NCBI GenBank assembly: GCA_038061925.1
Contig: JBBTYD010000005.1
Location: 13,477-77,476 of the forward strand
Source: Patescibacteria group bacterium
GTDB taxonomy: Bacteria > Patescibacteriota > Minisyncoccia > Phycocordibacterales > UBA9973
DNA: 64,000 bases
Reading direction: 5' to 3'
Under the pieces are notes generated by a model. That model did no database searches. It worked only from the letters and a program-made list of their open reading frames with translations, and had not been told where the DNA came from. This document shows, piece after piece, positions 327-50,705 of the stretch (the first letter of the stretch is position 1; each line of letters opens with the position of its first letter). The translations under genes and the position numbers were made by a program.

Positions 327-602
327 ATGAAAAAAAATGTAATAAATAATTCAATTAAAAAAATTGATAATTATATCCATGAAAGTGACCCATTAGGATT
401 AGGTGGAGCTTCCGGTGAATATTCGGATGTTGTATTTAACCTCTATAGAGTAGCAAAAGAAGGAATGGGTAAAATTACTAACAACCAAATTAAAAACGCT
501 TTTAAAAATATATTTGGCAATCTATCAGACACTTTAAATGTAGAAGACTTGAATCTTATCAAAAGTTTTATTGAAGAAACGATAATTTTAGAAAATGACT
601 GA
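327..602 (+). CDS. Small hypothetical protein (91 aa). Candidate immunity or accessory protein of the toxin locus.
   Basis: Starts 7 nt after the upstream stop and overlaps the start of the large RHS gene by 8 nt, implying translational coupling. No signal peptide. The immunity role is inferred from position only. Confidence 0.3.
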   Translation: MKKNVINNSIKKIDNYIHESDPLGLGGASGEYSDVVFNLYRVAKEGMGKITNNQIKNAFKNIFGNLSDTLNVEDLNLIKSFIEETIILEND

Positions 603-3600
603 AGAAAATAAATTTATGATAGAAAAAAAACAAAAAATAATTTCTTTAGTCACTCTACTGTTCTTGGTCTTTCAACCGCTCTCTTTTATTTTAGCTAATA
701 ACAAGACAACGCTACCTCCCACGCTTGCGCCGATAGACAACAGCTCCCCGGTGGATGACGCTCCATCCGTTCCTCTTTTAAAATCAGACCCCGCCGTGGC
801 CAGTTCTCTGCCACCAACATCGGAGGCGCCTTTAGATCTTTCTCCTGCGCCGGCAACCGACAAACTTACAGACAAGAAATCTTTAAGCAGTGTTCAGACT
901 AGCTCCGTCACTTCAGGAACGACACAGTCATACAGCCCCTCCGGCGCTCAAAAAACTTTGCAACCGAAAACAGATTTAAATACCGGGGCTTTGACCTTTG
1001 ATTATCCAATCTCTGCGCCTCCGGGCAGAAATGGTCTAACGCCAGATTTGAAACTTCAATATAACAGCAAGAACAATTTTAACAATAGTATGTTTGGTTA
1101 CGGCTGGACAGATAATATCCCGTATATTGAAAGAATAAACAAAGATGGAACAGACAAGCTTTATGCAGAAAATTATTTCTATTCTTCCACGGACGGAGAG
1201 TTGGTGTCTCAAGGCAACGGAAAATTCACACCCAAAACAGAGTCGGGAAGCTTTTCCAGTTATAATTTTGGAAGTGATCAGTGGCTCGTAACCGACAAAC
1301 AAGGAACGACCTATAAATTCGGTTACAATTCATCTGCCAGACAAGATGACCCAAATGACACTTCGCATATATATAAATGGATGCTGGAAGAAACAAGAGA
1401 CACAAATGATAACTACATCCAATACACCTATAACAAAGACGCGGGACAGATTTATCCGTCCGCTATAAATTATTCTGGCATCTTTGAAATTGAGTTTTTG
1501 AGAGAGTCCAGGGTGGATATAAATAAATCTTATGCCACGACGTTTCTGGTCGCGAGCAATTATCGGATTAGTGAAATACAAATAAAAATAAATAATGTCT
1601 GGGTGAAAAAATACAGTTTAGCTTATACGACGGGAGATAATGGAGTTCGTTCGTTACTCGAAAGTGTTACTGAATCGGGACAGGATGTGAATTCTGTCAT
1701 TACAACTTTACCCACAATTTTTTTTGATTATTATAAAAGCACTCCTGGTTGGAAACTTGATACTAAGACATACACTGCGCCTGTTTCATTTAACGGGTAT
1801 CAAAGTATGCTTGATGTTAACGGTGATGCTTTACCTGATATTGTCGAGTCATACAAATGGAATTGTAATCCAAACCAAGGAATAGTTAAAAACACATATA
1901 TAAATAATACACATAATGCTTGGAGTGAAAATAGTTCATTACAACCTCCAATTTTGTTTAGTCACTGTGATGCGCGTGGAAAGGAATATGGATATGGGTA
2001 TGGATGGAATCGGGGAGTGCGTACGGGAGATGTGAATGGAGATCTTTTGCCCGATATTATAAAGTCAGATGATCACACTCCCTATATTCTAAACGCAAAT
2101 GAATATGATACGTATATAAATACAAACGGTTCATCTTGGGTTCAAAATAAAGCTTGGCTTCCTACAATCACTTTCAATGGTGATGATGATAATGTTGATT
2201 GGAGTTCTTATTTTATTGATCTTAATGCGGATGGGTTGAATGACATTATACGGAACGGAGGAGGAGGAAACGAAAGAACTGGAACTCAAATAAATATAGG
2301 TACAAGTTTTAGTACGTCTACACAAAATTGGAATACCCCCGTTTCTTTAGCAACCTCACAAGATCTTAGTGTCCAATTTGTTGATATAAATAGTGATGGT
2401 CTCCCCGATATCTTATATCAATTTGATAGTTCTATTCCTAGTCGATCTGAAAAATCAATATATCTGAATAAAGGAGATGGAAAGTGGGTACTGGATAATT
2501 CATTTCTTTCAGATGAAATATACTTTGGTAATATTTATCAAGGCAATAGAATTGTCTTTTTTGATGTAAACAATGATGGACTTGTCGACGCAGTGCCAGG
2601 GAGCACCCTTGTGGATAGAAATTTTAACACATATTTAAATACTGGAACAGGCTGGGTGAAATCTCCGACCTGGAATGTACCAGGGAATCCTTGGAATCCT
2701 TGGATTAATTTTACAACATGGCCTTTTTTAAATATTGTTGATATTAATACTGACGGTTCCTTGGATTTTTTTATGACACAAAATTCAACTACCAATGCTT
2801 GGCTAAACAATACAAAAATTCCCACAGATACTCTCAAAAAAATAACTTCCTCAACAGAAGGTAACACTGATATTACTTATAAAAAATCAACACAATATTA
2901 TGATAATTCAAACAATCTTCTCAATCCAAATCTGCCTTTAAATCTAACAACTGTTTCCCAAATCACCATAAATGACGGCAACGGCAACAGCGAAACAACC
3001 TCTTATAGTTACGAAGGCGGTTCTTACTTTTTCAATACGGCTCTCGACCGCAAGTTCGCCGGTTTCAATAAAGTCAGCGAAACAGATTCGGTCGGCAACA
3101 CCACCACCACCTTTTATCATCAAGGCAACCCTTCGACCAGCTCAGGGCAAACACTTCTTGGAGAATATAACGATGACGAATGGAAAATAGGAAAACCGTA
3201 TCGAGTAGAAACGGCAGACAGTTCTGGTAATATCTATTCCAAAGCCATAAACAAGTGGGATGATTCTGATTTGGGCAATGGTAGTAAATTCGTGAAACTG
3301 GCGCAAACTATTGATTCCACTTACGATGGCGACTCAACGCACAAAGACAAAGCGGAAGGGTATGTATATGACAATTTAAACGGCAATCTTCTCCAAAAAA
3401 CAGAATATGGCGAAGTCGTGGGCAACGATAACGGCAGTTTCAGCGATATTGGCAACGACAGTTTTACCACAAATTACACTTATGCAATAGAAAGCGCGAA
3501 ATCTAAAGTAGCCAGTCAAAATACTGTAGACCAAAATTCAAACAAAGTTAAAGAGTCTCTCTATTATTATGACAACTTGCCATTAGGCCAGCTCTCGAAA

Positions 3601-5622
3601 GGCAACCAGACAAAAGAAGAAAAATGGAAAAATGGAAATACATATGTCAATATCCAAAAATCTTACAGAGGTTATGGCTTAGTGAAGGAAAGCGTTGACG
3701 CCAATGGCAATCCAACTAACTATGCTTACGACAATTTTAATTTATATCCCGCCACCATCACGAACGCCCTCAATCAAACCGTGAATCTGGCTTACGATTA
3801 TTCCACCGGTCAAGTCAAGCAAAAGATTGATCCGAATCATCGAGTCTTTCAATATGCTTATGACGGTTTAGGAAGACTTCTCTCGGAAAAACAACCAGAT
3901 CTCGTTGATCCTTCGTCTCTAGTCGTTAGAACCTCATACATATATACCGATACTCCCAACAATGTCGCAACGCAAAAGACTGATTATTTAGACGATTCAA
4001 CTAGCATTGACACATACACATACTTTGATGGTCTGGGCAGAAAAATACAAGAAAAAAAAGAAGCGGAAGATGGATATTCCGTCAAAGATTATGTGTATAA
4101 CAATCGTGGATTGCTGGACAAAGAATCATTGCCTTACAATAGTTCTGGCTCGGCCAGAACTGCCCCGACGACGACATCGGAGCTTTATACTAATTACACT
4201 TATGACCCAGCGCAAAGAGTAACTGCTTCTGTAAATAATCTAGGCACTATCACCAATACCTACAATGATTGGAAACTGACGATCACCAATGCCAATGGCA
4301 AAACAAAAGATCTATCCAAAGACGCTTATAATAATTTAATCCAAGTTGATGAACACCCTTCGATCAGCTCAGGACCGGCAACCACTTATTACTCCTACGA
4401 TTATCTCGGAGATTTGACAAAAATCACGGATGCTTTGGGCAACATCCGGAATTTTACTTACGATGGTTTGGGACGCCGATTGACAGCCCAGGATTTACAC
4501 GCGCCGGGCGACCTTACTTTTGGCGCTTATGTTTATACCTACGATAATAATGGAAATTTAATTAAAATTGTGGACCCCAATGGTTCGAGAAGCTCACCAC
4601 CTACGGCAATCAATTATACCTACGACGTCTTGAATCGGCAGTTAACTGAAGATTACACAAGAAACACCGGAGTGGAAGTAACTTACACCTACGACCGTGG
4701 CGCCGAGGGCCTAGGACGTCTCACAGGCATTGCCACCCGAGCGCTTGCTCAAACTAACACCTACAACGCAGTGGGCGAACTGAAAAGCGAATCAAAAATT
4801 ATTAACGGAGCGACTTATCGGACCAGTTATGATTATGACCGACTGGGCAATCAGATTACAATCACCAATCCAGATTCAGCCATCGTAAAATACAACTACA
4901 ATTCAGCCGGATTGCTGGAATCAGTTCAAAAGAAAGAAGCAAATGATACGGAATACACTGCGGTCGTTAGCAACTTCGATTATTCTCCAACTGAACAACC
5001 TGCCACCATTGTCTATCAGAATGGCGCAACCACCACCAACACTTACGATTCCACCAAACTTTACAGGTTGACTGCTAAAATCACGACCCTCCCCGGATCT
5101 CTCCATCTTCAAGATCTTACTTACACCTATGACGCAGTCGGCAACATTCTCCAAATAGTCGATGCCTCGGCAACGGACACTTCCAAAACAGCCCATTATA
5201 TTTATGATGATTTAGATCGCCTAATGGAAGCCGTGATAACCAATGTCGCGCCGGGTCAAAATGCCTATACCCAAACTTACACCTACAACGCAATTGGTAA
5301 TCTTTTGACCAAATCCGACTTTTCTGGAATTTATATTTACGGAGGTACGAATTATGCCAATCCGCACGCGGTCACATCTATTGGATCAACCCCGCTAACT
5401 TACGACCGCAATGGTAATGAACTAACTAAAGGTTCCGACTTAACCAATACCTGGGATTACAATAACAGGCTAAGTCAAGCCACGGCCGGTTCTAAGACCA
5501 ACGTTTACACTTATGATCCAAGCGGACAAAGAATCGTATCCGCCAATACTGCCTACACTATCACCGCCAGTCCAACGTCTCTACCCATTAAAAATCCAAT
5601 GCCTGCGCCACCAATAGAATGA
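595..5622 (+). CDS. TcB/Rhs-family shell protein (1675 aa). It has a signal/TM anchor, a Pro-rich linker, an SpvB-type N-terminal domain, an FG-GAP/VCBS beta-propeller, a mid region and many YD/RHS repeats. It ends without an RHS core or toxin tip.
   Basis: The N-terminal hydrophobic segment LVTLLFLVFQPLSFILA is followed by a P/S/T-rich linker. The SpvB/TcdB N-terminal pattern is LTFDYPISAPPGRNGLTPDLKLQYNS...FGYGWTDNIPYIERINKDG. There are at least 10 DxNxDGxxD FG-GAP-like repeats such as DVNGDALPDI, DINSDGLPDI and DVNNDGLVDA. More than 25 YD repeats follow, including YTYDxxGN, YAYDGLGRL, YTYDGLGRR and YDRNGN. The conserved RHS-core segment and C-terminal toxin are absent before TGA 5620-5622. 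Confidence 0.8.
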   Translation: MTEENKFMIEKKQKIISLVTLLFLVFQPLSFILANNKTTLPPTLAPIDNSSPVDDAPSVPLLKSDPAVASSLPPTSEAPLDLSPAPATDKLTDKKSLSSVQTSSVTSGTTQSYSPSGAQKTLQPKTDLNTGALTFDYPISAPPGRNGLTPDLKLQYNSKNNFNNSMFGYGWTDNIPYIERINKDGTDKLYAENYFYSSTDGELVSQGNGKFTPKTESGSFSSYNFGSDQWLVTDKQGTTYKFGYNSSARQDDPNDTSHIYKWMLEETRDTNDNYIQYTYNKDAGQIYPSAINYSGIFEIEFLRESRVDINKSYATTFLVASNYRISEIQIKINNVWVKKYSLAYTTGDNGVRSLLESVTESGQDVNSVITTLPTIFFDYYKSTPGWKLDTKTYTAPVSFNGYQSMLDVNGDALPDIVESYKWNCNPNQGIVKNTYINNTHNAWSENSSLQPPILFSHCDARGKEYGYGYGWNRGVRTGDVNGDLLPDIIKSDDHTPYILNANEYDTYINTNGSSWVQNKAWLPTITFNGDDDNVDWSSYFIDLNADGLNDIIRNGGGGNERTGTQINIGTSFSTSTQNWNTPVSLATSQDLSVQFVDINSDGLPDILYQFDSSIPSRSEKSIYLNKGDGKWVLDNSFLSDEIYFGNIYQGNRIVFFDVNNDGLVDAVPGSTLVDRNFNTYLNTGTGWVKSPTWNVPGNPWNPWINFTTWPFLNIVDINTDGSLDFFMTQNSTTNAWLNNTKIPTDTLKKITSSTEGNTDITYKKSTQYYDNSNNLLNPNLPLNLTTVSQITINDGNGNSETTSYSYEGGSYFFNTALDRKFAGFNKVSETDSVGNTTTTFYHQGNPSTSSGQTLLGEYNDDEWKIGKPYRVETADSSGNIYSKAINKWDDSDLGNGSKFVKLAQTIDSTYDGDSTHKDKAEGYVYDNLNGNLLQKTEYGEVVGNDNGSFSDIGNDSFTTNYTYAIESAKSKVASQNTVDQNSNKVKESLYYYDNLPLGQLSKGNQTKEEKWKNGNTYVNIQKSYRGYGLVKESVDANGNPTNYAYDNFNLYPATITNALNQTVNLAYDYSTGQVKQKIDPNHRVFQYAYDGLGRLLSEKQPDLVDPSSLVVRTSYIYTDTPNNVATQKTDYLDDSTSIDTYTYFDGLGRKIQEKKEAEDGYSVKDYVYNNRGLLDKESLPYNSSGSARTAPTTTSELYTNYTYDPAQRVTASVNNLGTITNTYNDWKLTITNANGKTKDLSKDAYNNLIQVDEHPSISSGPATTYYSYDYLGDLTKITDALGNIRNFTYDGLGRRLTAQDLHAPGDLTFGAYVYTYDNNGNLIKIVDPNGSRSSPPTAINYTYDVLNRQLTEDYTRNTGVEVTYTYDRGAEGLGRLTGIATRALAQTNTYNAVGELKSESKIINGATYRTSYDYDRLGNQITITNPDSAIVKYNYNSAGLLESVQKKEANDTEYTAVVSNFDYSPTEQPATIVYQNGATTTNTYDSTKLYRLTAKITTLPGSLHLQDLTYTYDAVGNILQIVDASATDTSKTAHYIYDDLDRLMEAVITNVAPGQNAYTQTYTYNAIGNLLTKSDFSGIYIYGGTNYANPHAVTSIGSTPLTYDRNGNELTKGSDLTNTWDYNNRLSQATAGSKTNVYTYDPSGQRIVSANTAYTITASPTSLPIKNPMPAPPIE

Positions 5623-11364: not shown

Positions 11365-12165
11365 TTATTTCATCTCTCCACTGAACATACAGACCGCCCC
11401 TCCACGCAGAATAATTTGTCCTTCGCGATTTTCGGAAAGATAAAGATTTCCACCCGGAAATTCTAATGTTATTTCATCTGGCGTTAGGCAAGGCCTAACG
11501 CCATCTTTTATAACTATTGCATACACTGCGCAAGCGCCAGTACCACAAGCGAGAGTGGCCCCGCAACCACGTTCCCAAACTTTCACCTTGAAACGATTAT
11601 CGGCGACTTTTTCCACCAACTCCATATTTATTTTATTTGGGAAATGAGAATCATTTTCAATTTTTGAGCCAATTGGGGAGATGTCAATTGTAGATATATT
11701 TTTTACAAATCCGACAGCGTGCGGATTTCCCATTGAGACAAATTTAAATGTGATATCTTCAAAGACAAGAGATTTTCCGGGAAAATCAACATGAGAAAAC
11801 ACCGGGATTCCCATATTCACAGAAAGACTTCCATCTTTATTTATTATTACCTTCTTTATTCCGGCTCTCGTGTCAATCGATAATTCTTTTAAGTTGGATT
11901 TTGTATGTTCTATAAAAAATAGAGCCACGCATCTAATTCCATTTCCACACATTTCCGCCAAAGTCCCATCAGCATTGTAATAATTCATAAAACAATCTGC
12001 CTTATTGGAAGATTCAACCAGGATGAGACCATCTGCGCCAATGCCAAAATGGCGATCGCATAAAAGTCTAATGTTTTCTGCATCTTTTATATCAAAATTC
12101 TTATCACGATTATCGATCATAATAAAATCATTTCCCGTACCGTGATATTTGTAAAATTTAAGCAT
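11365..12165 (-). CDS. dapF: Diaminopimelate epimerase
   Basis: The N-terminus YHGTGNDFIMID and the catalytic Cys motifs CGNGIRC and CGTGACA are present. Confidence 0.85.
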   Translation of the reverse strand: MLKFYKYHGTGNDFIMIDNRDKNFDIKDAENIRLLCDRHFGIGADGLILVESSNKADCFMNYYNADGTLAEMCGNGIRCVALFFIEHTKSNLKELSIDTRAGIKKVIINKDGSLSVNMGIPVFSHVDFPGKSLVFEDITFKFVSMGNPHAVGFVKNISTIDISPIGSKIENDSHFPNKINMELVEKVADNRFKVKVWERGCGATLACGTGACAVYAIVIKDGVRPCLTPDEITLEFPGGNLYLSENREGQIILRGGAVCMFSGEMK

Positions 12166-12838
12166 ATCTGCTATTTTTCTTTATTAATGAAAGAAATTTC
12201 ATTGTATCAATATTTTTACCTAAAGATTTGCGAGGAATCACGATATCCGCATATTTGGCATATAAGCGACTGCGTTTAGTAAGCAACTTTTGATAACATC
12301 TTCGCAAGCTTTGTTTATGAGTCTCTCCATTTTTAGGTCTAAAAATATTTCCAAACACCACAGGTTTTGGATCTTTAATGTAACTTCTAAACATATCTTC
12401 CCTCAGATAATCAGTGGCTTCAAGATAAATCACTAAAGTATGTTTCTTCAACAAAGAACAAATACTACTACCTAAATGCACCACACTGCCGGTGGTGTCA
12501 ATAACAATATTGTTTTTTCTAATATTTTTTAGCTTGGCAAGAATATTTTTTATTATCTCCGCTTCAAGCTCTAAAAATTTTTGTTGATTTTCAGAAAATC
12601 TTTTATTATAAGGTTGACCCATCCAACGTGAGACATCTTTGATGCCAGAATATCCGCGCGCCCGAAGAAGAGGCGCAAGTTTAGTTTCAATCAAATCATC
12701 ACAATTAAAATGCTGAAAATTTAATTCAGCCAGTTTTTTTGACCAATAGGTTTTCCCAATATTAGACATGCCAATCAAACTTAAAACTAATTTATTTTGT
12801 TGCAACAGATGTTTAAACTGTTTTTGGGATATTTTCAT
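12158..12838 (-). CDS. P-loop kinase with a shikimate-kinase-like fold, specific function unknown
   Basis: Walker A GMSNIGKT followed by FNCDDLIE (the F.D.D..IE motif of the shikimate/gluconate kinase fold). Overlaps dapL (4 nt) and dapF (8 nt), so it is translationally coupled inside the DAP operon. Confidence 0.5.
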   Translation of the reverse strand: MKISQKQFKHLLQQNKLVLSLIGMSNIGKTYWSKKLAELNFQHFNCDDLIETKLAPLLRARGYSGIKDVSRWMGQPYNKRFSENQQKFLELEAEIIKNILAKLKNIRKNNIVIDTTGSVVHLGSSICSLLKKHTLVIYLEATDYLREDMFRSYIKDPKPVVFGNIFRPKNGETHKQSLRRCYQKLLTKRSRLYAKYADIVIPRKSLGKNIDTMKFLSLIKKNSRYA

Positions 12839-14058
12839 AATTTTAAATTCTTTTCAATGCTTTCCAGCGCTTTAATTGTTTCTTGTTTATCTCCAAAGGC
12901 GCTTAAGCGAACATAGCCTTCTCCTTCCGACCCAAACCCAGAACCCGGAATTACGACAACCTGTGTTTCTTCCAAGAGTTTATCGAAAAATTCCCAAGAA
13001 CTTAAATTAGCGGGATTTTTTAACCAAATATATGGAGCCTGTTCTCCGCCAAAAACTTTAAAACCGAATTTAGAAAGACTTTTTTTTATTATGATCGCAT
13101 TGTTCATATAGTAAGCGATTAATTTCTGGCTTTCTTTTTGGCCAGCGGTCGAGAGAGCCGCTAAAGCGCCTTCTTCAGAGATATTAGATGCTCCATTAAA
13201 CATCGTGCTCTGGCGTCTATTCCAAAGACTGTTAACCTTACCCCTTTTTGTTTCTTCAACAATTAAATCCATCGGCACGACAGTCCAACCAAGACGGACG
13301 CCGGTAAACCCCGCCCATTTCGAAAAACTATTAATTTCGATAGCGCATTTTTTAGCCCCCTCTATCTCATAAATGCTCTTGGGCAAAGATTCATCAGAGA
13401 TATACTCAGCATAGGCAGCATCAAAGATAATAACCGCTTTGTTTTTTAAGGCATAATCAATAAAAAGTTTCAGCTGTTTTTTTGTGGCGACAGACCCCGT
13501 GGGATTATTTGGATTGCAAAGATAAATTATATCCACTTTTTGTTTGGGCGGAGTTGGCACAAAACCGTTTTTCTCATTGCCCTCCAGATAGACCAAACCT
13601 CCATATTTTCCATTCTTATATTCCCCCGTTCTTCCAGCCAGGACATTGCTGTCCAAATATACTGTATAAACAGGATCCGAAATTGCCACAATATTATTTA
13701 ATCCAAAAATTGATTGGATATTTGCCAAATCTGATTTCGCTCCATCGTTGATAAAAATTTCTGGCAGTTCTAAATCAATATTTCTTTTTTTGTAAAAATC
13801 AATCAAAGCAGACCGAAGTCTCTGGTCGCCCTGCGCGTCTTCATAACCTTTGTATGTTTCAACCTTGGCAAGTTTTTTCACTCCCTCTTTTAATCCTTTG
13901 ATAACAGTCGGGGTTAAGGGTCTGGTCGTATCCCCGATGCCGAGTCGCATAATTTCCACATCTGGATTCTTTTCTCTAAAATTATTCACGCGTTTGGCAA
14001 TCTCTTTAAACAAATACTCCCCCGACAGTTTATCGTAATTTTTATTAATGGTAGCCAT
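12835..14058 (-). CDS. dapL: LL-diaminopimelate aminotransferase (PLP-dependent, DapL type)
   Basis: The N-terminus MATINKNYDKLSGEYLFKEIAKRVNNFREKNPDVEIMRLGIGDTTRPL is typical of DapL. The aminotransferase class I fold and PLP-lysine region (SFSKWAGFTGVRLGW) are present. Confidence 0.8.
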   Translation of the reverse strand: MATINKNYDKLSGEYLFKEIAKRVNNFREKNPDVEIMRLGIGDTTRPLTPTVIKGLKEGVKKLAKVETYKGYEDAQGDQRLRSALIDFYKKRNIDLELPEIFINDGAKSDLANIQSIFGLNNIVAISDPVYTVYLDSNVLAGRTGEYKNGKYGGLVYLEGNEKNGFVPTPPKQKVDIIYLCNPNNPTGSVATKKQLKLFIDYALKNKAVIIFDAAYAEYISDESLPKSIYEIEGAKKCAIEINSFSKWAGFTGVRLGWTVVPMDLIVEETKRGKVNSLWNRRQSTMFNGASNISEEGALAALSTAGQKESQKLIAYYMNNAIIIKKSLSKFGFKVFGGEQAPYIWLKNPANLSSWEFFDKLLEETQVVVIPGSGFGSEGEGYVRLSAFGDKQETIKALESIEKNLKL

Positions 14059-14075
14059 TTCTGATTATATTTAAT

Positions 14076-14978
14076 TCAAATCAACTTTAATTCTTGCAAG
14101 GTCTTTTCCACCAGAGCTCTATTTTTTTCTTCAATAAAAGTGAGTGGAAGTCTGAGACTCTCTTCAATAAATCCCATCATCGACATAGCTGTTTTGACGG
14201 GAATCGGGTTAGATTCAATAAAATTAACATTCATCAGTTTGAGCATCAGATAGTGCAATCTTCGGGCTTCCTTTAAATTGTCTTCGAGCGCAAAATGAAT
14301 CATATCAGAAAATAATTTCGGGACTTCATTGCAAACAACAGAAATACAGCCCTTCCCGCCAAGGGCGATAAGGGGCAAAGCCAGGGCATCATCACCAGCT
14401 AACACGCTAAAATCTTTTGGACCGTTTCTGGCCACTTCATCTATAATTTCCATCATTTGATTCAAAGAACCGGAAGCTTCTTTGACAGCCACGACGGCCG
14501 GCACTTCTCTCCCAATTCGCGCAATAACTTGGGGTAAAACATTAGATCCAGTTCGGCCTGGAACATTGTAAATGATGATGGGCATATTTACCGCTTTGGC
14601 AATTTCTTTAAAATGCAGAACCAAACCATTTGGAGTCGGTTTATTATAATAAGGAGTCACCTGAAGCAAGGCATCAGCTCCAGCCGATTTAGCCAGACGT
14701 GAAAAATGAATCGCTTTTTTAGTATCATTTGAACCTGCTCCGGCGATTACTGGAATTTTACCGGAAACTTTTTTTACCACTGTTTTTATGATAGTAACGT
14801 ATTCCTCATCGTTTAAGGTGGCCGCTTCCCCCGTCGAACCAGCCACAACGATCGCATCCACTCCCCCTTCCAGCTGATACAAGACTAGTTTCTCCAGCGC
14901 TGGTAAATCTAAATCTCCATTTTTTTTAAAGGGTGTGATAATGGCTGGGATAGAACCGAAAAATTTTATGTTTTTCAT
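14076..14978 (-). CDS. dapA: 4-hydroxy-tetrahydrodipicolinate synthase
   Basis: GSIPAIITPF...GVDAIVVAGSTGE and the catalytic Lys region, matching the DapA/NAL family. Confidence 0.85.
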   Translation of the reverse strand: MKNIKFFGSIPAIITPFKKNGDLDLPALEKLVLYQLEGGVDAIVVAGSTGEAATLNDEEYVTIIKTVVKKVSGKIPVIAGAGSNDTKKAIHFSRLAKSAGADALLQVTPYYNKPTPNGLVLHFKEIAKAVNMPIIIYNVPGRTGSNVLPQVIARIGREVPAVVAVKEASGSLNQMMEIIDEVARNGPKDFSVLAGDDALALPLIALGGKGCISVVCNEVPKLFSDMIHFALEDNLKEARRLHYLMLKLMNVNFIESNPIPVKTAMSMMGFIEESLRLPLTFIEEKNRALVEKTLQELKLI

Positions 14979-15010
14979 TTTGTTTGATCTGGTAAAATCA
15001 ACTTGTTATC

Positions 15011-15748
15011 TTAATTAAAGATATCTTCAAAAGAATAAAACCCTTTTTTATTTTTAATAAAATTGGCCGCTAGAAGAGCCCCTTTAGCAAACCCGACCCT
15101 ATTATACGCTTGATGAGACAAAGTTATACCATCGGCATTGCTGTCAAACACAACTTCGTGCAAACCGGGGTTTCTCCCGGCTCGAAGCGAAGCAAAATGC
15201 AGTTCGCTAGGTTTAATTTGACCATCTGATTTTTCAGTTAAAATTGATTTTTTGGAAGGAAAATTTTTAATAATTTCACTCGCAATTTTCAAAGCGGTGC
15301 CGGAAGGACTGTCTAATTTTCTCTTATGATGGACTTCCAATCCATATACGTCGTAATCAGAAAATTTGGAAAAAAGCTTAGAAGAAAAAGCTGTTATTTT
15401 AAAAAATATGTTCGCTCCAATTGAAAAATTGGGACTATAGATTAGACCGATTTTATATTTAGCAACTAACGCTTTCACTTTATCGAATTCATCATACCAT
15501 CCAGTCGTGCCAATAATTAAATTTTTACGAAGTTTCGCAACCTCTTTTATATTTTCTAACACAGCGTCTTTGGACGTAAAATCTATCGCCACATCCGCTT
15601 TTCTAATACCTTTTAAATCCAGTTTATCATCTTTATTTTTAAAACTGATTGAAACCACTTCAAAAACTTCCGACCCGCGACAGAGCGCGTTAATTTCTTG
15701 ACCCATCTTGCCAAAACCAAGCAAGGCGATTTTTATTTTATTTTTCAT
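15011..15748 (-). CDS. dapB: 4-hydroxy-tetrahydrodipicolinate reductase
   Basis: Rossmann motif IALLGFGKMGQ and DapB signature EVHHKRKLDSPSGTA. Confidence 0.85.
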   Translation of the reverse strand: MKNKIKIALLGFGKMGQEINALCRGSEVFEVVSISFKNKDDKLDLKGIRKADVAIDFTSKDAVLENIKEVAKLRKNLIIGTTGWYDEFDKVKALVAKYKIGLIYSPNFSIGANIFFKITAFSSKLFSKFSDYDVYGLEVHHKRKLDSPSGTALKIASEIIKNFPSKKSILTEKSDGQIKPSELHFASLRAGRNPGLHEVVFDSNADGITLSHQAYNRVGFAKGALLAANFIKNKKGFYSFEDIFN

Positions 15749-16124
15749 ATGATTTTCAAAATCACGCTAGGCGCAATAATTTTATTATATATTTAGAGAA
15801 TAGCAAAAATAAATAAAAAAAGCACTAATCTCTAAACAATCCTTTTGAAGCTGGGCTCCAAGAGTAACAAATTATTAGAGGATAGACCCAGCAAAAATAA
15901 ATCTTTGCCAGAACGTCCTATACAAATTCGTATAACCGATGGCTGATTGCTTAGAGATTAATGCCTTCTTCGTCCGCCAAAGCCTTGGCGAAAGCAAACT
16001 TGTTAAAAACCTCTGAAACTATTTTACTATAAAGAAAACCAATCAAATGCTATAATGTGTATAGCTATGTTGATACTGTGTTAATAAACTCGCTACCTGA
16101 GCAGTATAGCATATTGTTAAACCA

Positions 16125-17192
16125 ATGTCAATCACTAAAACGAAAAACTCTCGCCTCGGCGGAGCCGGCAAAACTGAAGATGTTGTTTTAGACCAGACTC
16201 TGCGCCCTACTCGCTGGGATGAATATATTGGCCAAAAACACATAAAAGACAACGTTAAAATCTTGCTTCGAGCCGCCGAAGAACGCGGACATATTCCCGA
16301 ACATATTCTCTTTTATGGACCTCCGGGGTTAGGTAAAACCACCCTCGCGCACCTTATCGCCAAGGAAACTGGCAGACAAATGAAAATAACTTCTGGACCA
16401 GCCATTGAAAAAGTGGGCGACTTGGCCTCAATTCTCACCAATCTGGCGCCTGGCGACATTCTTTTTATAGATGAAATCCACAGATTGAACAAGATGGTGG
16501 AAGAAATACTCTATCCGGCTATGGAGTCTGGCGTTTTGGACATCATAATCGGCAAAGGTCCATCGGCGCGCACTATTCAGCTCGACCTTCCGCCTTTCAC
16601 ACTCATCGCGGCCACCACTCGGGTCGCCTTAATTTCTTCGCCCCTCCGCTCGCGATTTTCAGGCGGAGTCTTTAGATTGGAATTTTATTCAAATGAAGAA
16701 ATTGAAAAAATAATCGAAAGATCAAGCAAGCTTCTTGATATTACGCTTGAAGAAAGCGCTTTAAGAGAAATTGCAAAAAGAAGTCGATTCACCCCTCGCA
16801 CCGCAAATTATTTTTTAAAACGCTGTCGGGATTTTGCCCAAGTCAATAAAAAAAGTGAGCAAAAAAACAAAGAAGCCGACCAGCAAAAAAACTTAGATCA
16901 AAAAATAGTCAAAGAGGCGCTGAATATGCTCGCCGTTGATGATATCGGACTTAATCCTTCCGATCGAAAATTTTTAGAAATATTAATTGAAAAATTTAAT
17001 GGCCGGCCGGTGGGACTAAAAACCATCGGAGCGGCGATGTCGGAAGAGGAAGCAACAATAGAGGAAGTAATAGAGCCCTACTTGATTCAGCTCGGCTTGC
17101 TTGAACGGACCGCCCGCGGGCGAGTCGCCACTCGGAAAGCGTACGAACATTTGGGGTTTGATTTTAAAGAAAAGCAAGACAAGCTTTTATAA
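16125..17192 (+). CDS. ruvB: Holliday junction branch migration helicase RuvB
   Basis: Walker A GPPGLGKTT, Walker B LFIDEIHRL, sensor region and the C-terminal winged helix RTPRTANYFLKRCRDFA. Carries a K/Q-rich low-complexity insertion (KKSEQKNKEADQQKNLDQK). Confidence 0.9.
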   Translation: MSITKTKNSRLGGAGKTEDVVLDQTLRPTRWDEYIGQKHIKDNVKILLRAAEERGHIPEHILFYGPPGLGKTTLAHLIAKETGRQMKITSGPAIEKVGDLASILTNLAPGDILFIDEIHRLNKMVEEILYPAMESGVLDIIIGKGPSARTIQLDLPPFTLIAATTRVALISSPLRSRFSGGVFRLEFYSNEEIEKIIERSSKLLDITLEESALREIAKRSRFTPRTANYFLKRCRDFAQVNKKSEQKNKEADQQKNLDQKIVKEALNMLAVDDIGLNPSDRKFLEILIEKFNGRPVGLKTIGAAMSEEEATIEEVIEPYLIQLGLLERTARGRVATRKAYEHLGFDFKEKQDKLL

Positions 17193-26876: not shown

Positions 26877-28223
26877 TTATTTGAGTTCTAATTTCCAAAG
26901 AAAAGAATCTTTTTTATTTATAAAAAATAAATAGTTTTCACTTTCATCTAAAGAAAGTTTTACACCATCAACCTCTTCCCCTCCTGGAATGGCCACTGGA
27001 TCGGCGAGCATTGTTCCATTTCCAGTTTTAACATCTATCTTCCAAAGTTGATCGCTAAAAGACACTTCTCCTTGATACCAAGTATCTGGATATAGACCTA
27101 CATCAACTGACTTTGGCGTAGCGCAATAGACAGTATCGCTCCCGCGCGCCCAAACACATTTTTCGGGTAGAGTTTTTATTCCCAACACATCTGAATTTCT
27201 CGTATCTAGGTGATAAACGCCAAGGGATAAATTATTCGATGCATTATTTCCACCATAAAGAATTAGTTTTCCATTGGGACTTTCGAGAGTGGTTAATCCA
27301 TTTATATTACCAAAAATTTTACTTAAATTTTTTCCAGCAGAGTCCATTGTGTACATATGCCCGGGAATACCCGCAGAAGGTTTAGTAGAAAGAGTGATTG
27401 TGTTACTATTCGGCCAAAATGATAGCCATTCAGTAAAAGGAGAATCCAGTATCTGTGTTTTTTTATTATTTAGAAAGTTTAAAATTATTCCAATCATATC
27501 ATTTCCACTGTCAAACAAGTAAAATACTTTTGAAGTATCGGGGGATATGCTTATATCTTTAACATTATTGGGCAAGAAAGATCCCTTAATTTCATTATTT
27601 TCGGTTGTATCTCCTCCTAATAATTCCTTCGGAAGAGTTCCGATAAAAGTTTCTATTGTTTGGTTGTCGGATTTTAAATATCGCATAATCACTGATTCCC
27701 CGTGGTTGCCAAAATAGCTATCGTATACTTTTGGGATTAGTGTGCTTGAGAACTTCCTTTCTTCTATCTTATCTGCGAAAGTTTGGTAAATATTTCCAGT
27801 GGCTTTATCCACATATCTCAAAGCGGGCTTAAATTCGGTTGGTGGCCGAGTCGGTTTTACGGTCTGTTTTTTAATATTTGCCGCAGGAGGGGTGGTGGTT
27901 GGCGTGGCGACCGGTATTTCCATTTCCTTCAGTCTTTCTTTTGCAAAAACCGTAAATCCCGCTATGGGCATAGTTGAAACTTTCGTTAATTTGACAGCTG
28001 GTGTTTCTGTTGCGGGAAGAGGTATATTTGATATATTAATTGGAGGTTTTACAGAGGCAGGTGTTAATTTCGCCCCAAATGGATTAAATTGCGAGAGAAA
28101 ATTTATGCCTGTTTCGTTGTCAACGGGCACCATTGTCCCCGGTCGGAAATATAAAAATCCAAAAATCGCAATTACTGTTAAAATCAAGATTATTATTAAA
28201 AGTATAAAATTTCTTTTGGACAT
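26877..28223 (-). CDS. Membrane-anchored extracytoplasmic protein with a Pro/Thr-rich linker and a predicted beta-propeller-like domain
   Basis: N-terminal TM (ILLIIILILTVIAIFGFLYF), then a P/T-rich spacer, then a beta-rich domain with PD40/TolB-like strands. No catalytic motif seen. Confidence 0.4.
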   Translation of the reverse strand: MSKRNFILLIIILILTVIAIFGFLYFRPGTMVPVDNETGINFLSQFNPFGAKLTPASVKPPINISNIPLPATETPAVKLTKVSTMPIAGFTVFAKERLKEMEIPVATPTTTPPAANIKKQTVKPTRPPTEFKPALRYVDKATGNIYQTFADKIEERKFSSTLIPKVYDSYFGNHGESVIMRYLKSDNQTIETFIGTLPKELLGGDTTENNEIKGSFLPNNVKDISISPDTSKVFYLFDSGNDMIGIILNFLNNKKTQILDSPFTEWLSFWPNSNTITLSTKPSAGIPGHMYTMDSAGKNLSKIFGNINGLTTLESPNGKLILYGGNNASNNLSLGVYHLDTRNSDVLGIKTLPEKCVWARGSDTVYCATPKSVDVGLYPDTWYQGEVSFSDQLWKIDVKTGNGTMLADPVAIPGGEEVDGVKLSLDESENYLFFINKKDSFLWKLELK

Positions 28224-28231
28224 AAATTTTA

Positions 28232-28723
28232 TTATGGAAAGGGTGATGTAATTTTATTTGTATTTGAACCAGAATTAGGTACTTGGAATGGAGCAACTGT
28301 AGGCGGAGTTGAAGTGGTTGGAGTGGAAAGAAGCGGTTCAATATCACTCCTAAGCAAGTCTGGATTTATTGTAAAAAGAAGCGCATAAGCACCAAGGGCG
28401 ATAAGAAGTCCCAAGATTGCCCCCATAATCCTTTTTTTGCCAGCTTCTTTATTCCCCGGTAATTCGCTTGTCATATATTCTAATCCACCCACCACAATCA
28501 TTACCACCGACAAAACCGCGCATAGGCCGATAAATAGTTTTATCATTGGGTTCAAATAAGCGCCTAGGCCACTCATGGTATCAACATTGCCTTGGCTATC
28601 GCCAACAGCAGGCAGTGGAGCCAAAAGATGATAGTTTGAAGTTTCCGCGTTTATTTCCAACATTGGACCAAAAAGTCCGATTAGAATGATGATTATTAAA
28701 ATATATTTTTTGTATTTCATCAT
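28232..28723 (-). CDS. VirB2/TrbC-like type IV secretion pilin candidate
   Basis: A signal peptide is followed by two hydrophobic helices (MIKLFIGLCAVLSVVMIVVGGLEYM and IMGAILGLLIALGAYALLF) separated by a short charged loop. This is the VirB2/TrbC topology. A P/T-rich tail follows. Confidence 0.4.
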   Translation of the reverse strand: MMKYKKYILIIIILIGLFGPMLEINAETSNYHLLAPLPAVGDSQGNVDTMSGLGAYLNPMIKLFIGLCAVLSVVMIVVGGLEYMTSELPGNKEAGKKRIMGAILGLLIALGAYALLFTINPDLLRSDIEPLLSTPTTSTPPTVAPFQVPNSGSNTNKITSPFP

Positions 28724-28731
28724 ATATTAAA

Positions 28732-29727
28732 TTAAAATTCTATGTTTATTTCTTTGCTTGTCGTCTCAAAAATTTTGTTTTGATTGTCAATCTGCAATTT
28801 TAAGACAGATGTTCCGGAAGCTCCCTCTGGCGCTTTAAGCGGCATTAAATTTTTTTTAAAGCCCGTTAAATTTACCAAACTGTCGTTAATGAACCAGCTC
28901 CAGATTAAGGTCGGATTTAATATTTCTTTTGGTGAAATAAAATAAGGTATTGCCTCTATTATCTCACTGCCTTGTATTTTATAAGAATTAGTCAGTGTTT
29001 TCTCCCAAATTGTTCCAAAGGAATTGTCGTTTTTATAAAATAATATTTTCGGCTCGGTCATTCCGATGTCGATACTTGCTTGACTTGAATATTTTTGGTC
29101 CACCGTTCTGGCGGTCACTGATATATTATTGGAATTTTCCAAATAGTCATTTGTGAAGATAAAGAAATTTTTACTATAACCTGAATTGTCTTGCGAATTG
29201 GTATAATCTTTCTTCCAGGCATAAATCATATTTTTGGGATCAGCCAGCGTATTGTTATTAGGAGAACCAGTTCTTATTTCCGGCATAGTCACCACTTTTA
29301 CTTCACTATCGGGTGTGGGCAAGGCTTTGCCGCGGTAAAACGGCGGGACATAAGAATCATTCGCTTGCCAAAGCAGTGTCATCACAGAAGGTCTGATTGT
29401 TATTTTTTCGTCTATCGCGCCGTCTGGTAGAGATATTGTGGCTATTACACTTGTTTCTTCACCAGCCGCCGGTGCGGTGGTTAAAAATGACTTTTTACTA
29501 ATTCCAGATAGAACAGTTTTGCCATTTACCGACCAAGATATTAAAACACTATCCAAGTTATAGACATAACTTTTTAAATTAATAGTTGTATTTTCGTATG
29601 GAGCTGGATTGGGAGGAACTATATTTACCAATATACTGTTGGACGAGTCCGCATTTACCTTTAGCGCGAGACTTCCGAATATCAGAACTATTATGATTAA
29701 ATATAACGATAAGAATTTAAATCTCAT
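28732..29727 (-). CDS. Secreted hypothetical protein (signal peptide), part of the T4SS-like cluster
   Basis: N-terminal signal peptide with ...LKVNA|DSS. Beta-rich with no recognisable enzymatic motif. Confidence 0.4.
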   Translation of the reverse strand: MRFKFLSLYLIIIVLIFGSLALKVNADSSNSILVNIVPPNPAPYENTTINLKSYVYNLDSVLISWSVNGKTVLSGISKKSFLTTAPAAGEETSVIATISLPDGAIDEKITIRPSVMTLLWQANDSYVPPFYRGKALPTPDSEVKVVTMPEIRTGSPNNNTLADPKNMIYAWKKDYTNSQDNSGYSKNFFIFTNDYLENSNNISVTARTVDQKYSSQASIDIGMTEPKILFYKNDNSFGTIWEKTLTNSYKIQGSEIIEAIPYFISPKEILNPTLIWSWFINDSLVNLTGFKKNLMPLKAPEGASGTSVLKLQIDNQNKIFETTSKEINIEF

Positions 29728-29778
29728 AGTTTAATTGTACCATATCCGCTTTATAAACTTACCAATTTTTTTTGTTTT

Positions 29779-31641: not shown

Positions 31642-31645
31642 AATA

Positions 31646-32296
31646 TTATTCCAATTTTATCTTTCCTTCCACTTCTCCCGGATTGAAAACTTTATAAAAT
31701 ACTTCCACAATCTCTTCGGTGCCCAATTGAGCTGATTTTATGCCACAGCGACTAAGTCCTTGTTGAATTACGCTCACTCTTTCTTCCAGTTGAGATCTCT
31801 TTTCCTCAAAGTCTTCTTGATTGGCTATCTTTGCCTCGGCTTTATTTTTTCTCTTGAATAAATTTTTGAATATCCCGGGAAATATCCCGGAATCTGATTT
31901 TAAAACAGTATGGGTATAAGGAACCACGACAAAAAAGCTTTTTGTCATTATACTCACTGACTCGGTAAAATTCCTAATAAATTCTATATATTCTTTTGTC
32001 TGTAATTTAAGCAAAGGTTCGTTTTGCACTTTGGCTCTATCTTCTAAAAGCAAAATATAAGGTCGGATGTCGAGCCTTCTACTTTGCACTGATATTTGAA
32101 TAGTAAAATCCAAAGTATTGAGAAAACTTTGGAATTGAAGAATAGTCGCTTTTTGTTCATCGTCGGACTTTAAAGACAGGTTGACTGAGTTGGCGAGCAC
32201 GATTGCTCGCAATCCGCCGTCTTTCAGCACGATTACTCCATCGCGAACCTCCTTGATGGGAACAAATTCTTGAGTTGCTTTTGCGTTTAATGCCAT
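31646..32296 (-). CDS. Detached VirB4-N-terminal-like protein (216 aa) immediately upstream of the VirB4 ATPase gene
   Basis: ATQEFVPIKEVRDGVIVLKDGGLRAIVLANSVNLSLKSDDEQ resembles the extreme N-terminal segment of long Gram-positive VirB4/TrsE proteins. Its stop lies 4 nt before the ATG of the 620-aa VirB4 ORF. Confidence 0.45.
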   Translation of the reverse strand: MALNAKATQEFVPIKEVRDGVIVLKDGGLRAIVLANSVNLSLKSDDEQKATILQFQSFLNTLDFTIQISVQSRRLDIRPYILLLEDRAKVQNEPLLKLQTKEYIEFIRNFTESVSIMTKSFFVVVPYTHTVLKSDSGIFPGIFKNLFKRKNKAEAKIANQEDFEEKRSQLEERVSVIQQGLSRCGIKSAQLGTEEIVEVFYKVFNPGEVEGKIKLE

Positions 32297-32307
32297 ATTA
32301 TTTGATA

Positions 32308-32739: not shown

Positions 32740-32751
32740 ATTTATTATTTT

Positions 32752-33426: not shown

Positions 33427-33435
33427 AATTTTTAA

Positions 33436-33924: not shown

Positions 33925-33936
33925 ATTTTTTAATTT

Positions 33937-36024: not shown

Positions 36025-36039
36025 TGATAATTAATATCC

Positions 36040-50486: not shown

Positions 50487-50705
50487 CTGAATACCCTTTT
50501 TGATAAAACGAGAAAAATCAATCCGTTCACCTCTTCGGACTGGTTTTTTAAAGTTCCTATTTCTTTTTCGTGCAAAACTTTGTGCAAAGCGAGAATGAGA
50601 ACTTTTATTGAGTTTTCTGTAAACGTAAGTTATAATTTAAGTATAGCATTTTGTAAAAAGTTTGTCAATGTTTTATTAATCTTCCAAAAAACATATAATG
50701 AAAAT

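What the first reader, a model, noticed from the sequence alone, without database searches (positions are those of the whole stretch)
11365..15748. Aminotransferase-type DAP/lysine operon (dapB-dapA-dapL-X-dapF) with an embedded shikimate-kinase-like P-loop kinase
Five overlapping or near-abutting minus-strand genes encode DapB, DapA, the DapL-type LL-DAP aminotransferase and DapF. The DapL shortcut explains the absence of dapD, dapC and dapE.

Between dapL and dapF, and overlapping both, is a 226-aa P-loop kinase with GMSNIGKT...FNCDDLIE, the shikimate/gluconate-kinase fold. It has no known role in DAP synthesis.

The only kinase of the pathway (aspartokinase) belongs to a different fold, and lysC and asd are not in the operon. 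The embedded kinase may be a non-orthologous replacement or a regulatory addition.
Basis: partly seen in the sequence, partly recalled or inferred. Interest (0 to 1): 0.5.

Follow-up and report, generated by a model that had tools for sequence, protein, structure and literature searches.

The report
Misnamed homoserine kinase inside DAP operon
The five-gene operon is real, but the "shikimate-kinase-like" gene in it most likely makes phosphohomoserine for threonine synthesis: it belongs to a widespread, unrecognised family that sits in the thrB slot of threonine operons in other bacteria, and in this lineage it has moved into the diaminopimelate operon.

Summary
Window 11365-15748 (minus strand) holds dapB, dapA, DapL-type dapL, a 226-aa shikimate-kinase-fold kinase and dapF. 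The kinase is translationally coupled to both neighbours. All four dap genes pass curated cut-offs.

The kinase is not a DAP-pathway enzyme or an aspartokinase substitute. It belongs to a conserved family of about 223 aa (389 clusters at 50% identity) found in CPR/Patescibacteria, Acidobacteriota, Chloroflexota and others. Databases call it "shikimate kinase" or "hypothetical".

In 79 species-level genomes:
- 45 have thrC directly adjacent to the kinase.
- 53 have some threonine-pathway gene adjacent.
- 19 show (AK/HSD/Asd)-kinase-thrC.
- None has dap genes or a GHMP thrB nearby.

It is also fused to aspartokinase-homoserine dehydrogenase in two different domain orders. I conclude it is a non-orthologous homoserine kinase. 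The precedent is Desulfovibrio DvMF_0971, but this clade is separate and more divergent.

Close relatives with the same backbone gene order carry kinase-thrC. In this genome an RHS toxin cassette replaces that block and the kinase sits in the dap operon. Only one other lineage shares that placement.

I could not determine whether this genome still has thrC.

The parts
16103..16131 (-). Promoter-like site for the operon (TTGACA, 17-nt spacer, TG-extended TATACT). It overlaps the divergent ruvB start.
   Evidence: 11 of 12 matches, the best in the region. This is a consensus match only; function is not shown.
15749..16096 (-). Structured 5' leader of about 350 nt before dapB. A long helix is followed by a U-rich run about 60 nt upstream of the dapB ATG.
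   Evidence: MFE -96.3 vs shuffles -70.2 +/- 4.7 kcal/mol (z = -5.5); no Rfam family at E <= 1. No comparative data are available.
15011..15748 (-). dapB, 4-hydroxy-tetrahydrodipicolinate reductase (245 aa)
   Evidence: DapB_N and DapB_C domains; TIGR00036 155.9 bits, above the cut-off of 122.
14076..14978 (-). dapA, 4-hydroxy-tetrahydrodipicolinate synthase (300 aa)
   Evidence: DHDPS 297 bits; TIGR00674 340.1 bits, above the cut-off of 206.
12835..14058 (-). dapL, LL-diaminopimelate aminotransferase of the plant/Chlamydia type (407 aa)
   Evidence: TIGR03542 548.2 bits, above the cut-off of 364.7.
12158..12838 (-). Shikimate-kinase-fold kinase, inferred to be a homoserine kinase (non-orthologous ThrB), 226 aa. 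Its start overlaps the dapL stop and its end overlaps the dapF start.
   Evidence: Fold. Family context and fusions. Orthology to thrC-linked kinases. Motifs.
11365..12165 (-). dapF, diaminopimelate epimerase (266 aa)
   Evidence: two DAP_epimerase domains; TIGR00652 257.9 bits, above the cut-off of 114.7.

Best explanation
The operon encodes the four enzymes of the DapL (aminotransferase) route from aspartate semialdehyde to meso-DAP, plus a fifth enzyme from the other branch that consumes aspartate semialdehyde. The embedded 226-aa protein is an ATP-dependent small-molecule kinase of the shikimate-kinase fold. It most likely phosphorylates L-homoserine to O-phospho-L-homoserine, the substrate of threonine synthase, so it is a non-orthologous replacement of GHMP-type ThrB. 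It keeps the phosphoryl-transfer core of shikimate kinases: Walker-A K29/T30, Asp47 (aligned to AroK Asp34), LID Lys158 and Arg189. It replaces the shikimate-specific parts: the GGG loop has become D114-T-T-G-S118, and the Arg58 segment is replaced by an insertion of about 35 residues with invariant W72-x-G74-Q-P-Y. In most genomes the gene lies in the thrB position (thrA/hom-asd-K-thrC) or is fused to ThrA. In the window's lineage the ancestral K-thrC site was lost to an RHS toxin cassette, and K now sits between dapL and dapF, coupled to both, so the two branches that draw on aspartate semialdehyde are co-expressed.

Shown: the gene identities, the fold, the motif pattern, family-wide synteny and fusions, orthology, and the relocation.

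Inferred: the substrate (no assay was possible), and that thrC and hom exist elsewhere in this genome.
For: (1) Synteny in 79 species-representative genomes: thrC is directly adjacent on the same strand in 45. AK/HSD/Asd is adjacent or fused in 27. Any thr-pathway gene is adjacent in 53. Nineteen loci are flanked on both sides as (AK/HSD/Asd)-K-thrC. Extra examples are L004, L006, L089, L090, L091 and L095.
(2) In operons such as thrA-asd-K-thrC (L006, L091), K is the only unassigned gene and homoserine kinase is the only unassigned step. E. coli GHMP ThrB finds no homologue in any of about 100 loci, whereas E. coli ThrA finds 34 loci and ThrC finds 61.
(3) Rosetta-stone fusions occur in two different orders: AK-ACT-HSD-K (L018, L019, L021, L023, L028, P0359) and K-AK-ACT-HSD (P0424).
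(4) The window kinase is an ortholog, not a diverged paralog. It is 69-70% identical to the thrC-linked kinases of L089 and L090. Their backbone (RuvC, RuvB, T2SSE, PolA, PEMT, hyp) is colinear with the window at 60-84% identity. In an NJ tree, window plus L087 are sisters in 100 of 100 bootstraps, and they nest with L089 and L090 in 99 of 100, with no branch lengthening. It keeps all residues that are invariant in the family.
[quoted passage not shown] The evidence is threonine-rescued mutants and complementation of E. coli thrB- (PMC5764234).
(6) The fold and motifs fit a kinase with an altered substrate site.
Against: There is no biochemical or genetic test of any member of this clade. I could not find thrC, hom, lysC or asd of the window's own genome. 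None lies in the 64-kb window or within 10 kb beyond either edge. The three candidate ThrC proteins I traced belong to other genomes. The match to the curated Desulfovibrio homoserine-kinase model is far below its cut-off (41.8 vs 197 bits). Canonical shikimate kinases score higher on that model than this family does, so homology to the validated enzyme adds little beyond the shared fold. Twenty-four of the 79 loci show no thr-pathway gene nearby. The tight coupling to dapL and dapF, kept in two lineages, could reflect a DAP-linked role.
Confidence: 0.75

Rival explanations
1. In this lineage the kinase has been recruited to a new job tied to DAP or peptidoglycan synthesis, for example acting on a different hydroxy-amino acid or controlling flux. 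On this view thrC was lost when the ancestral kinase-thrC block was replaced.
For: The kinase-thrC-uvrBAC block of relative L089 is replaced by an RHS/YD cassette in this genome. No thrC lies in about 84 kb around the operon. No ThrC from this genome turned up among the traced NCBI-sourced relatives at 66-70% identity. The overlapping junctions with dapL and dapF are conserved in a second lineage at 74% identity.
Against: The branch is short and every family-invariant residue is kept, so there is no sign of a change in function. uvrABC went missing from the same site and is unlikely to have been lost, so the block was probably moved rather than deleted. No DAP-pathway step needs a kinase of this kind (established pathway knowledge). 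Failing to find thrC is weak evidence, because the full MAG could not be searched.
Confidence: 0.1
2. It is a true but divergent shikimate kinase (AroK/AroL), as NCBI and JGI annotate it, and its position next to dap or thr genes is coincidental.
For: Pfam SKI is above its gathering score (36.9 vs 22.1). The top structural matches are all shikimate kinases. Asp47 and Arg189 align to shikimate-binding residues of AroK.
Against: Scores against every curated shikimate-kinase equivalog are far below cut-off (at most 25.4 vs 161-204). The GGG loop and the Arg58 segment are replaced. The thr-operon context and ThrA fusions are conserved across phyla. No aro genes are in the window. A canonical shikimate kinase coexists with family members (L083 passes the AroL cut-off; L055 and L006 are near it).
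Confidence: 0.04
3. It is a non-orthologous aspartokinase that supplies aspartyl phosphate to the DAP pathway.
For: lysC and asd are absent from the operon and the window.
Against: The family is fused to, or adjacent to, proteins that already carry a complete AA_kinase aspartokinase domain, which would make it redundant. The shikimate-kinase fold phosphorylates hydroxyl groups, not carboxylates (established knowledge of the fold). Its conserved partner is thrC, not asd alone.
Confidence: 0.03
4. It is a homoserine kinase, but its product O-phosphohomoserine feeds something other than threonine in this organism, for example a plant-like methionine route that depends on O-phosphohomoserine.
For: In L020 a Cys/Met-metabolism PLP enzyme abuts the kinase in place of thrC.
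Against: This is a single locus out of 79. No such gene is in the window. The closest relatives have thrC.
Confidence: 0.05

Closest known systems
DvMF_0971-type homoserine kinase of Desulfovibrio vulgaris (NCBIfam NF040667 'hom_kin_desulfo'; Price et al. 2018, PMC5764234)
   Same: It has the shikimate-kinase fold, fills the missing ThrB step, was originally annotated as shikimate kinase, and coexists with a true shikimate kinase.
   Different: The window protein scores 41.8 bits against a cut-off of 197, and the best E-value among 75 family members is 1.5e-15. It is about 60 residues longer than the 163-position model. It carries an insertion of about 35 residues with a WxGQPY motif, and D-T-T-G-S in place of the GGG loop. 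Canonical shikimate kinases are closer to NF040667 than this family is, so this is a separate clade and possibly an independent recruitment. It has not been tested experimentally.
Shikimate kinase AroK/AroL (Pfam PF01202; PDB 1kag, 2iyz, 4y0a)
   Same: Same fold (Foldseek TM about 0.7 normalised to the target). Shared features are the Walker A motif, an Asp after strand 2, a basic LID residue and a C-terminal Arg.
   Different: Identity is 15-21%. The protein is about 50 residues longer. The GGG loop and Arg58 region are not conserved. Scores are below all curated cut-offs. The genomic context is threonine genes, not aromatic amino acid genes.
Canonical homoserine kinase ThrB (GHMP superfamily, E. 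coli b0003)
   Same: Same inferred reaction and the same operon position between thrA/asd and thrC.
   Different: The fold is unrelated. The relationship is analogous, not homologous. No GHMP ThrB is found in any family locus.
TIGR02535 / BT2402 putative alternative homoserine kinase (phosphoglycerate-mutase-like; GapMind paper PMC7311316)
   Same: It is another proposed filler of the 'missing ThrB' gap, also inferred from adjacency to thr genes.
   Different: It has a different fold and a different proposed phosphoryl donor, and it failed to complement E. coli thrB-.
DapL-type DAP operons (Chlamydia, cyanobacteria, plants, Bacteroidota)
   Same: dapB, dapA, DapL (TIGR03542) and dapF give the four-step aminotransferase route without dapD, dapC or dapE.
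   Different: Here a threonine-branch kinase is inserted between dapL and dapF and is translationally coupled to both.

Membership tests
Shikimate kinase (AroK/AroL, EC 2.7.1.71) | Scores above the curated equivalog cut-off of an NCBIfam shikimate kinase model | tested here: not met
   NF010553 25.4 vs 204; NF002988 20.8 vs 161; NF003456 20.5 vs 195. The broad Pfam domain SKI is met (36.9 vs 22.1), which shows the fold only.
Shikimate kinase (AroK/AroL, EC 2.7.1.71) | Shikimate-binding residues: Asp34, Arg58, Gly79-Gly80-Gly81 and Arg136 (M. tuberculosis numbering; the residue roles come from my own knowledge of the solved complexes) | tested here: not met
   profile alignment to 1kag. The Asp (D47) and the C-terminal Arg (R189) are kept. 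GGG is replaced by T116-G117-S118 after an invariant D114. The Arg58 segment has no counterpart and is replaced by the W72-G74-Q75-P76-Y77 insertion.
Shikimate kinase (AroK/AroL, EC 2.7.1.71) | Shikimate-kinase / NMP-kinase-like three-dimensional fold with a P-loop | tested here: met
   model pLDDT 92.8; the top 35 PDB matches are all shikimate kinases.
Shikimate kinase (AroK/AroL, EC 2.7.1.71) | Genomic association with chorismate-pathway genes, or being the only candidate aroK in the genome | tested here: not met
   There are no aro genes in the window. The family context is thr genes. Separate canonical shikimate kinases lie in L083 (166 vs 161) and, near cut-off, in L055 and L006. The rest of this genome could not be searched.
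Desulfovibrio-type homoserine kinase (NF040667) | Scores above the curated cut-off (197 bits) | tested here: not met
   41.8 bits; all 75 family members hit the model, but the best E-value is 1.5e-15; canonical shikimate kinases score 99-119 bits on the same model.
Desulfovibrio-type homoserine kinase (NF040667) | Homoserine kinase activity (rescue of E. coli thrB-; threonine auxotrophy of mutants) | not testable with these tools
   This is known only for DvMF_0971 (PMC5764234).
Functional class 'homoserine kinase' (any fold) | Occupies the thrB position in thr operons, or is fused to homoserine dehydrogenase, in genomes or loci that lack another homoserine kinase | tested here: met
   Family level: thrC adjacent in 45 of 79; flanked on both sides in 19 of 79; two fusion architectures; 0 GHMP ThrB. 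In the window itself the gene is not next to thr genes.
Functional class 'homoserine kinase' (any fold) | The same genome encodes homoserine dehydrogenase and threonine synthase | tested here: inconclusive
   They are absent from the window and from 10 kb beyond each edge. They are present in the close relatives L089 and L090.
GHMP homoserine kinase ThrB | GHMP kinase domains, or homology to E. coli ThrB | tested here: not met
   One search gives no GHMP hit. One search gives no similarity to E. coli ThrB.
Aspartokinase (AA_kinase, PF00696) | Amino acid kinase fold | tested here: not met
   One search gives no AA_kinase hit. One search shows a P-loop shikimate-kinase fold instead.
DapL-pathway DAP biosynthesis operon | dapA, dapB, DapL-type aminotransferase and dapF each pass the equivalog cut-off | tested here: met
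   TIGR00674, TIGR00036, TIGR03542 and TIGR00652 are all above their cut-offs.

The most novel reading that the evidence does not exclude
When the ancestral kinase-thrC block was replaced by a toxin cassette, this CPR lineage lost threonine synthase but kept the kinase by wiring it, translationally coupled, into the DAP operon. If so, the enzyme would have a new role linked to DAP or to the cell wall, such as phosphorylating a different substrate or gating flux from aspartate semialdehyde, rather than making threonine.
Probability: 0.1. Interest if true: 0.7.

Novelty: new variant of a known kind. Interest (0 to 1): 0.42.

Why it matters
Homoserine kinase is one of the most commonly "missing" steps when amino-acid biosynthesis is predicted from genomes. 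In the GapMind study it was low-confidence in 29 of 148 prototrophs, and 14 of those had no candidate at all (PMC7311316). This family comprises 389 clusters at 50% identity. It occurs in Patescibacteria, Acidobacteriota, Chloroflexota, SAR324, Bdellovibrionales and some Alphaproteobacteria. It is uniformly labelled "shikimate kinase" or "hypothetical protein".

Reassigning it would have three effects:
- It would close threonine-pathway gaps.
- It would remove false shikimate-pathway calls in CPR genomes.
- It would show that some CPR bacteria keep a complete route from aspartate to threonine.

A single complementation experiment can test it. For this locus in particular, the result explains an apparent oddity (a kinase in a DAP operon) as a relocation within the aspartate-family pathway, not as new DAP chemistry.

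Tried and rejected
(1) Finding thrC in the window's own genome. tblastn of ThrC, ThrA, Asd and LysA from relatives against the window found nothing. Walking 10 kb beyond both window edges found nothing. I searched with the closest relative's ThrC and traced three candidates, P0133, P0131 and P0148. All belong to other assemblies, and two of them carry their own thr operon with a family kinase. The genome-collection scan did not contain this species (best hit 59%). Result: undetermined.

(2) Using NF040667 as evidence of sisterhood to the validated Desulfovibrio enzyme. I rejected this after a control showed that canonical shikimate kinases score higher on that model than this family does.

(3) A metagenome scan with the window kinase, meant to find more dap-context relatives, returned only two loci and nothing new.

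(4) Direct sequence search of the PDB with the single protein gave no significant hit. A family profile was needed.

(5) A known riboswitch in the dapB leader: no Rfam hit.

(6) An AlphaFold-database fold search for UniProt names: the library was not available.

(7) A functional link for the 218-aa hypothetical and the PEMT-like gene that precede kinase-thrC in relatives: no informative Pfam hit.

(8) A literature search found no paper describing this clade. Only the Desulfovibrio precedent came up.
Full report
**1. What is there**

Window 11365-15748 carries five minus-strand ORFs exactly as described. Four of them pass NCBI's curated equivalog cut-offs:

| Gene | Model | Score (bits) | Cut-off (bits) |
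|---|---|---|---|
| dapB | TIGR00036 | 155.9 | 122 |
| dapA | TIGR00674 | 340.1 | 206 |
| dapL (plant/Chlamydia type) | TIGR03542 | 548.2 | 364.7 |
| dapF | TIGR00652 | 257.9 | 114.7 |

The fifth ORF (12158-12838, 226 aa) has a Walker A motif (GMSNIGKT). It matches Pfam SKI at 36.9 bits, above the gathering score of 22.1.

The dapL stop overlaps the kinase start (ATGA). The kinase's end overlaps the dapF start by 8 nt (ATGCTTAA). The kinase is therefore translationally coupled to both neighbours.

A strong promoter-like site lies at 16131-16103 on the minus strand. It would give a leader of about 350 nt.

The organism is a Patescibacteria (CPR) MAG from Hainich groundwater. NCBI calls the protein MEK7539146.1 "shikimate kinase".

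The rest of the window is housekeeping: DnaA, DnaN, YidC, PBP1, RuvB, RuvC, PolA, EF-G and ThyA. It has no lysC, asd, hom, thrC, lysA or aro genes.

**2. The kinase belongs to a large, conserved, unrecognised family**

A sequence search gave 907 relatives. Most are about 223 aa and come mainly from CPR. A profile search of 1.84 billion representatives found 389 clusters at 50% identity with E <= 1e-30. Wherever a source names these proteins, the name is "shikimate kinase" or "hypothetical protein", never "homoserine kinase". The searchable literature does not describe the clade.

**3. The family's conserved partners are threonine genes, not dap genes**

I fetched 79 loci from species-representative genomes. 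They cover CPR, Acidobacteriota, Chloroflexota, SAR324, Bdellovibrionales, Alphaproteobacteria and others. I labelled the neighbouring genes with reference proteins and checked divergent threonine synthases against TIGR00260.

| Context of the kinase | Loci (of 79) |
|---|---|
| thrC directly adjacent, same strand | 45 |
| Aspartokinase, homoserine dehydrogenase or asd adjacent or fused | 27 |
| Any threonine-pathway gene adjacent | 53 |
| Flanked on both sides, (AK/HSD/Asd)-K-thrC | 19 |
| dapA, dapB, dapF or a true DapL within 10 kb | 0 |
| GHMP-type thrB within 10 kb | 0 |

In operons such as thrA-asd-K-thrC (L006, L091) or lysC-hom-asd-K-thrC (L095), K is the only unassigned gene. Homoserine kinase is the only step from aspartate to threonine that has no gene assigned.

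**4. Gene fusions**

Five species-level genomes encode a single polypeptide of about 1,040 aa with the order aspartokinase, homoserine dehydrogenase, kinase. thrC follows within 1 kb in four of the five; the fifth locus (L021) shows no thrC on its contig. The representative library holds the same architecture (P0359). It also holds the opposite order, kinase-aspartokinase-ACT-homoserine dehydrogenase (P0424). Two different domain orders imply at least two independent fusions to ThrA. These fusions also exclude the aspartokinase-replacement idea, because the partner already has a full aspartokinase domain.

**5. Fold and active site**

The AlphaFold model is confident (pLDDT 92.8, pTM 0.89). 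Its best PDB matches are all shikimate kinases (TM about 0.7 normalised to the target, 15-21% identity). A family-profile alignment to E. coli AroK shows the following.

Kept (phosphoryl-transfer core):
- Walker A.
- D47, aligned to AroK Asp34.
- The P157-K158-P159 segment, aligned to the LID.
- R189, aligned to the C-terminal Arg.

Changed (shikimate-specific parts):
- The GGG loop has become D114-T-T-G-S118 (D114, T115, G117 and S118 are invariant in 75 sequences).
- The Arg58 segment is replaced by an insertion of about 35 residues with invariant W72 and G74 and near-invariant P76.

This pattern fits the same chemistry acting on a different hydroxyl substrate.

**6. Relation to the known shikimate-kinase-like homoserine kinase**

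Price et al. showed that DvMF_0971 of Desulfovibrio vulgaris, first annotated as a shikimate kinase, is the organism's homoserine kinase. The evidence was threonine-rescued mutants and complementation of E. coli thrB- (PMC5764234). NCBIfam NF040667 models that enzyme.

NF040667 is the top NCBIfam hit for the window protein and for all 75 family members tested. The scores are only about 42-55 bits against a cut-off of 197. As a control, canonical shikimate kinases score 99-119 bits on the same model. The hit therefore does not show a special relationship.

I treat the Desulfovibrio enzyme as a functional precedent. The present family is a separate, more divergent clade of the same fold.

**7. 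Why the gene is in a dap operon here**

The close relative L089 shares the window's backbone order: TyrRS, RuvC, RuvB ... T2SSE, PolA, PEMT, hypothetical. Protein identities are 60-84%, and its kinase is 69% identical. Two things differ in L089:
- The kinase lies with thrC right after PEMT-hypothetical, followed by uvrB, uvrA, uvrC, SpoU, Fpg and RuvA.
- lysA occupies the site between RuvB and T2SSE, where the window has the dap operon.

L090 shows the same kinase-thrC pair.

Walking left of the window (L100) shows RuvA, Fpg, SpoU, then a YD-shell gene and the 1,675-aa RHS/SpvB gene (window 595-5622), then the hypothetical and PEMT. The kinase-thrC-uvrBAC block has been replaced by a toxin cassette at that site.

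In an NJ tree the two dap-context kinases (window and L087) are sisters in 100 of 100 bootstraps. They nest with the thrC-linked L089 and L090 in 99 of 100, with short branches. L087/L088 (74% identical) also has dapL-K-dapF with overlapping junctions.

The dap placement is therefore a derived relocation of an ordinary ortholog that has been stable across at least two lineages. Both DapA and homoserine dehydrogenase draw on aspartate semialdehyde. Co-transcribing a threonine-branch enzyme with the DAP branch is a plausible way to coordinate the two. That last step is my inference.

**8. What remains open**

I could not establish that this genome still has thrC and hom. They are not in the window or within 10 kb of either edge. 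Three candidate ThrC proteins that I traced belong to other genomes. The species is not in the genome collection I could scan.

uvrABC vanished from the same site and is unlikely to have been lost. A move of the whole block elsewhere is therefore more likely than deletion, but this is not shown.

If thrC is really absent, the kinase's conserved coupling to dapL and dapF would call for another explanation. I give that reading about 10%.

**9. Verdict**

The family-level inference of homoserine kinase rests on strong, independent context evidence (synteny across phyla, two fusion architectures, no alternative ThrB nearby) and on a functional precedent. It lacks any experiment.

I rate it a new variant of a known kind (shikimate-kinase-fold homoserine kinase). 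Interest is moderate. It is not very surprising given the Desulfovibrio case. It is useful, though, because it would fix a widespread misannotation and fill a recurrent pathway gap, and one complementation experiment would test it.

Noticed in passing
window 15749-16096 (minus strand): The leader of about 350 nt between the promoter-like site and dapB folds much better than shuffled controls (z = -5.5). It ends in a long helix followed by a U-rich run about 60 nt before the start codon, which looks like an attenuator. No Rfam family matches, so it is not a known lysine riboswitch. It could be an unrecognised regulatory RNA of the aspartate-family operon.
   Followed up: partly
window 595-5622 (+), with upstream genes seen in L100 8572-10008: A 1,675-aa SpvB/RHS-repeat toxin gene, preceded by a YD-shell gene and a 91-aa ORF, occupies the exact site where the close relative L089 has kinase-thrC-uvrB-uvrA-uvrC. 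A polymorphic-toxin cassette has replaced a housekeeping block in a CPR genome.
   Followed up: partly
L089 3005-4183 compared with window 11365-15748: Between RuvB and T2SSE the relative carries lysA (TIGR01048, 393 bits), where the window carries dapB-dapA-dapL-K-dapF. This intergenic slot seems to be a variable site for aspartate-family genes. The window has no lysA.
   Followed up: partly
L020 8873-9988: In one Saccharibacteria-labelled genome a Cys/Met-metabolism PLP enzyme (similar to cystathionine beta-lyase or gamma-synthase, below all equivalog cut-offs) abuts the family kinase in place of thrC. This hints at a sulfur amino-acid route that depends on O-phosphohomoserine.
   Followed up: partly
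P0409, P0412, P0416, P0423, P0429, P0430, P0436, P0448 (280-300 aa); P0431, P0442, P0494 (358-387 aa): Many family members carry N-terminal extensions of about 60-160 residues. Those checked by Pfam (P0409, P0431, P0436, P0442, P0494) show no domain in the extension. Their function is unknown.
   Followed up: partly
window 26877-38295 (minus strand): A block of about eleven co-directional ORFs contains a TraG-like P-loop ATPase (29779-31641). Six of the larger ORFs were scanned and none has a Pfam hit, including proteins of 695 and 751 aa. The smaller ORFs were not scanned. This may be a type IV secretion or conjugation-like system, or a pilus system.
   Followed up: no
window 50370-51686 (+): The thymidylate synthase ORF is 438 aa. 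The ThyA domain starts only at residue 125, which leaves an N-terminal extension of about 124 residues with no annotation. The cause could also be a start codon called too far upstream.
   Followed up: no
L055 19245-19760; L083 12143-12727; L050 17787-18326: Canonical shikimate kinases score 99-119 bits on NCBIfam NF040667 ('homoserine kinase', cut-off 197). The model is close to ordinary shikimate kinases, so sub-threshold hits to it should not be read as evidence for homoserine kinase.
   Followed up: yes
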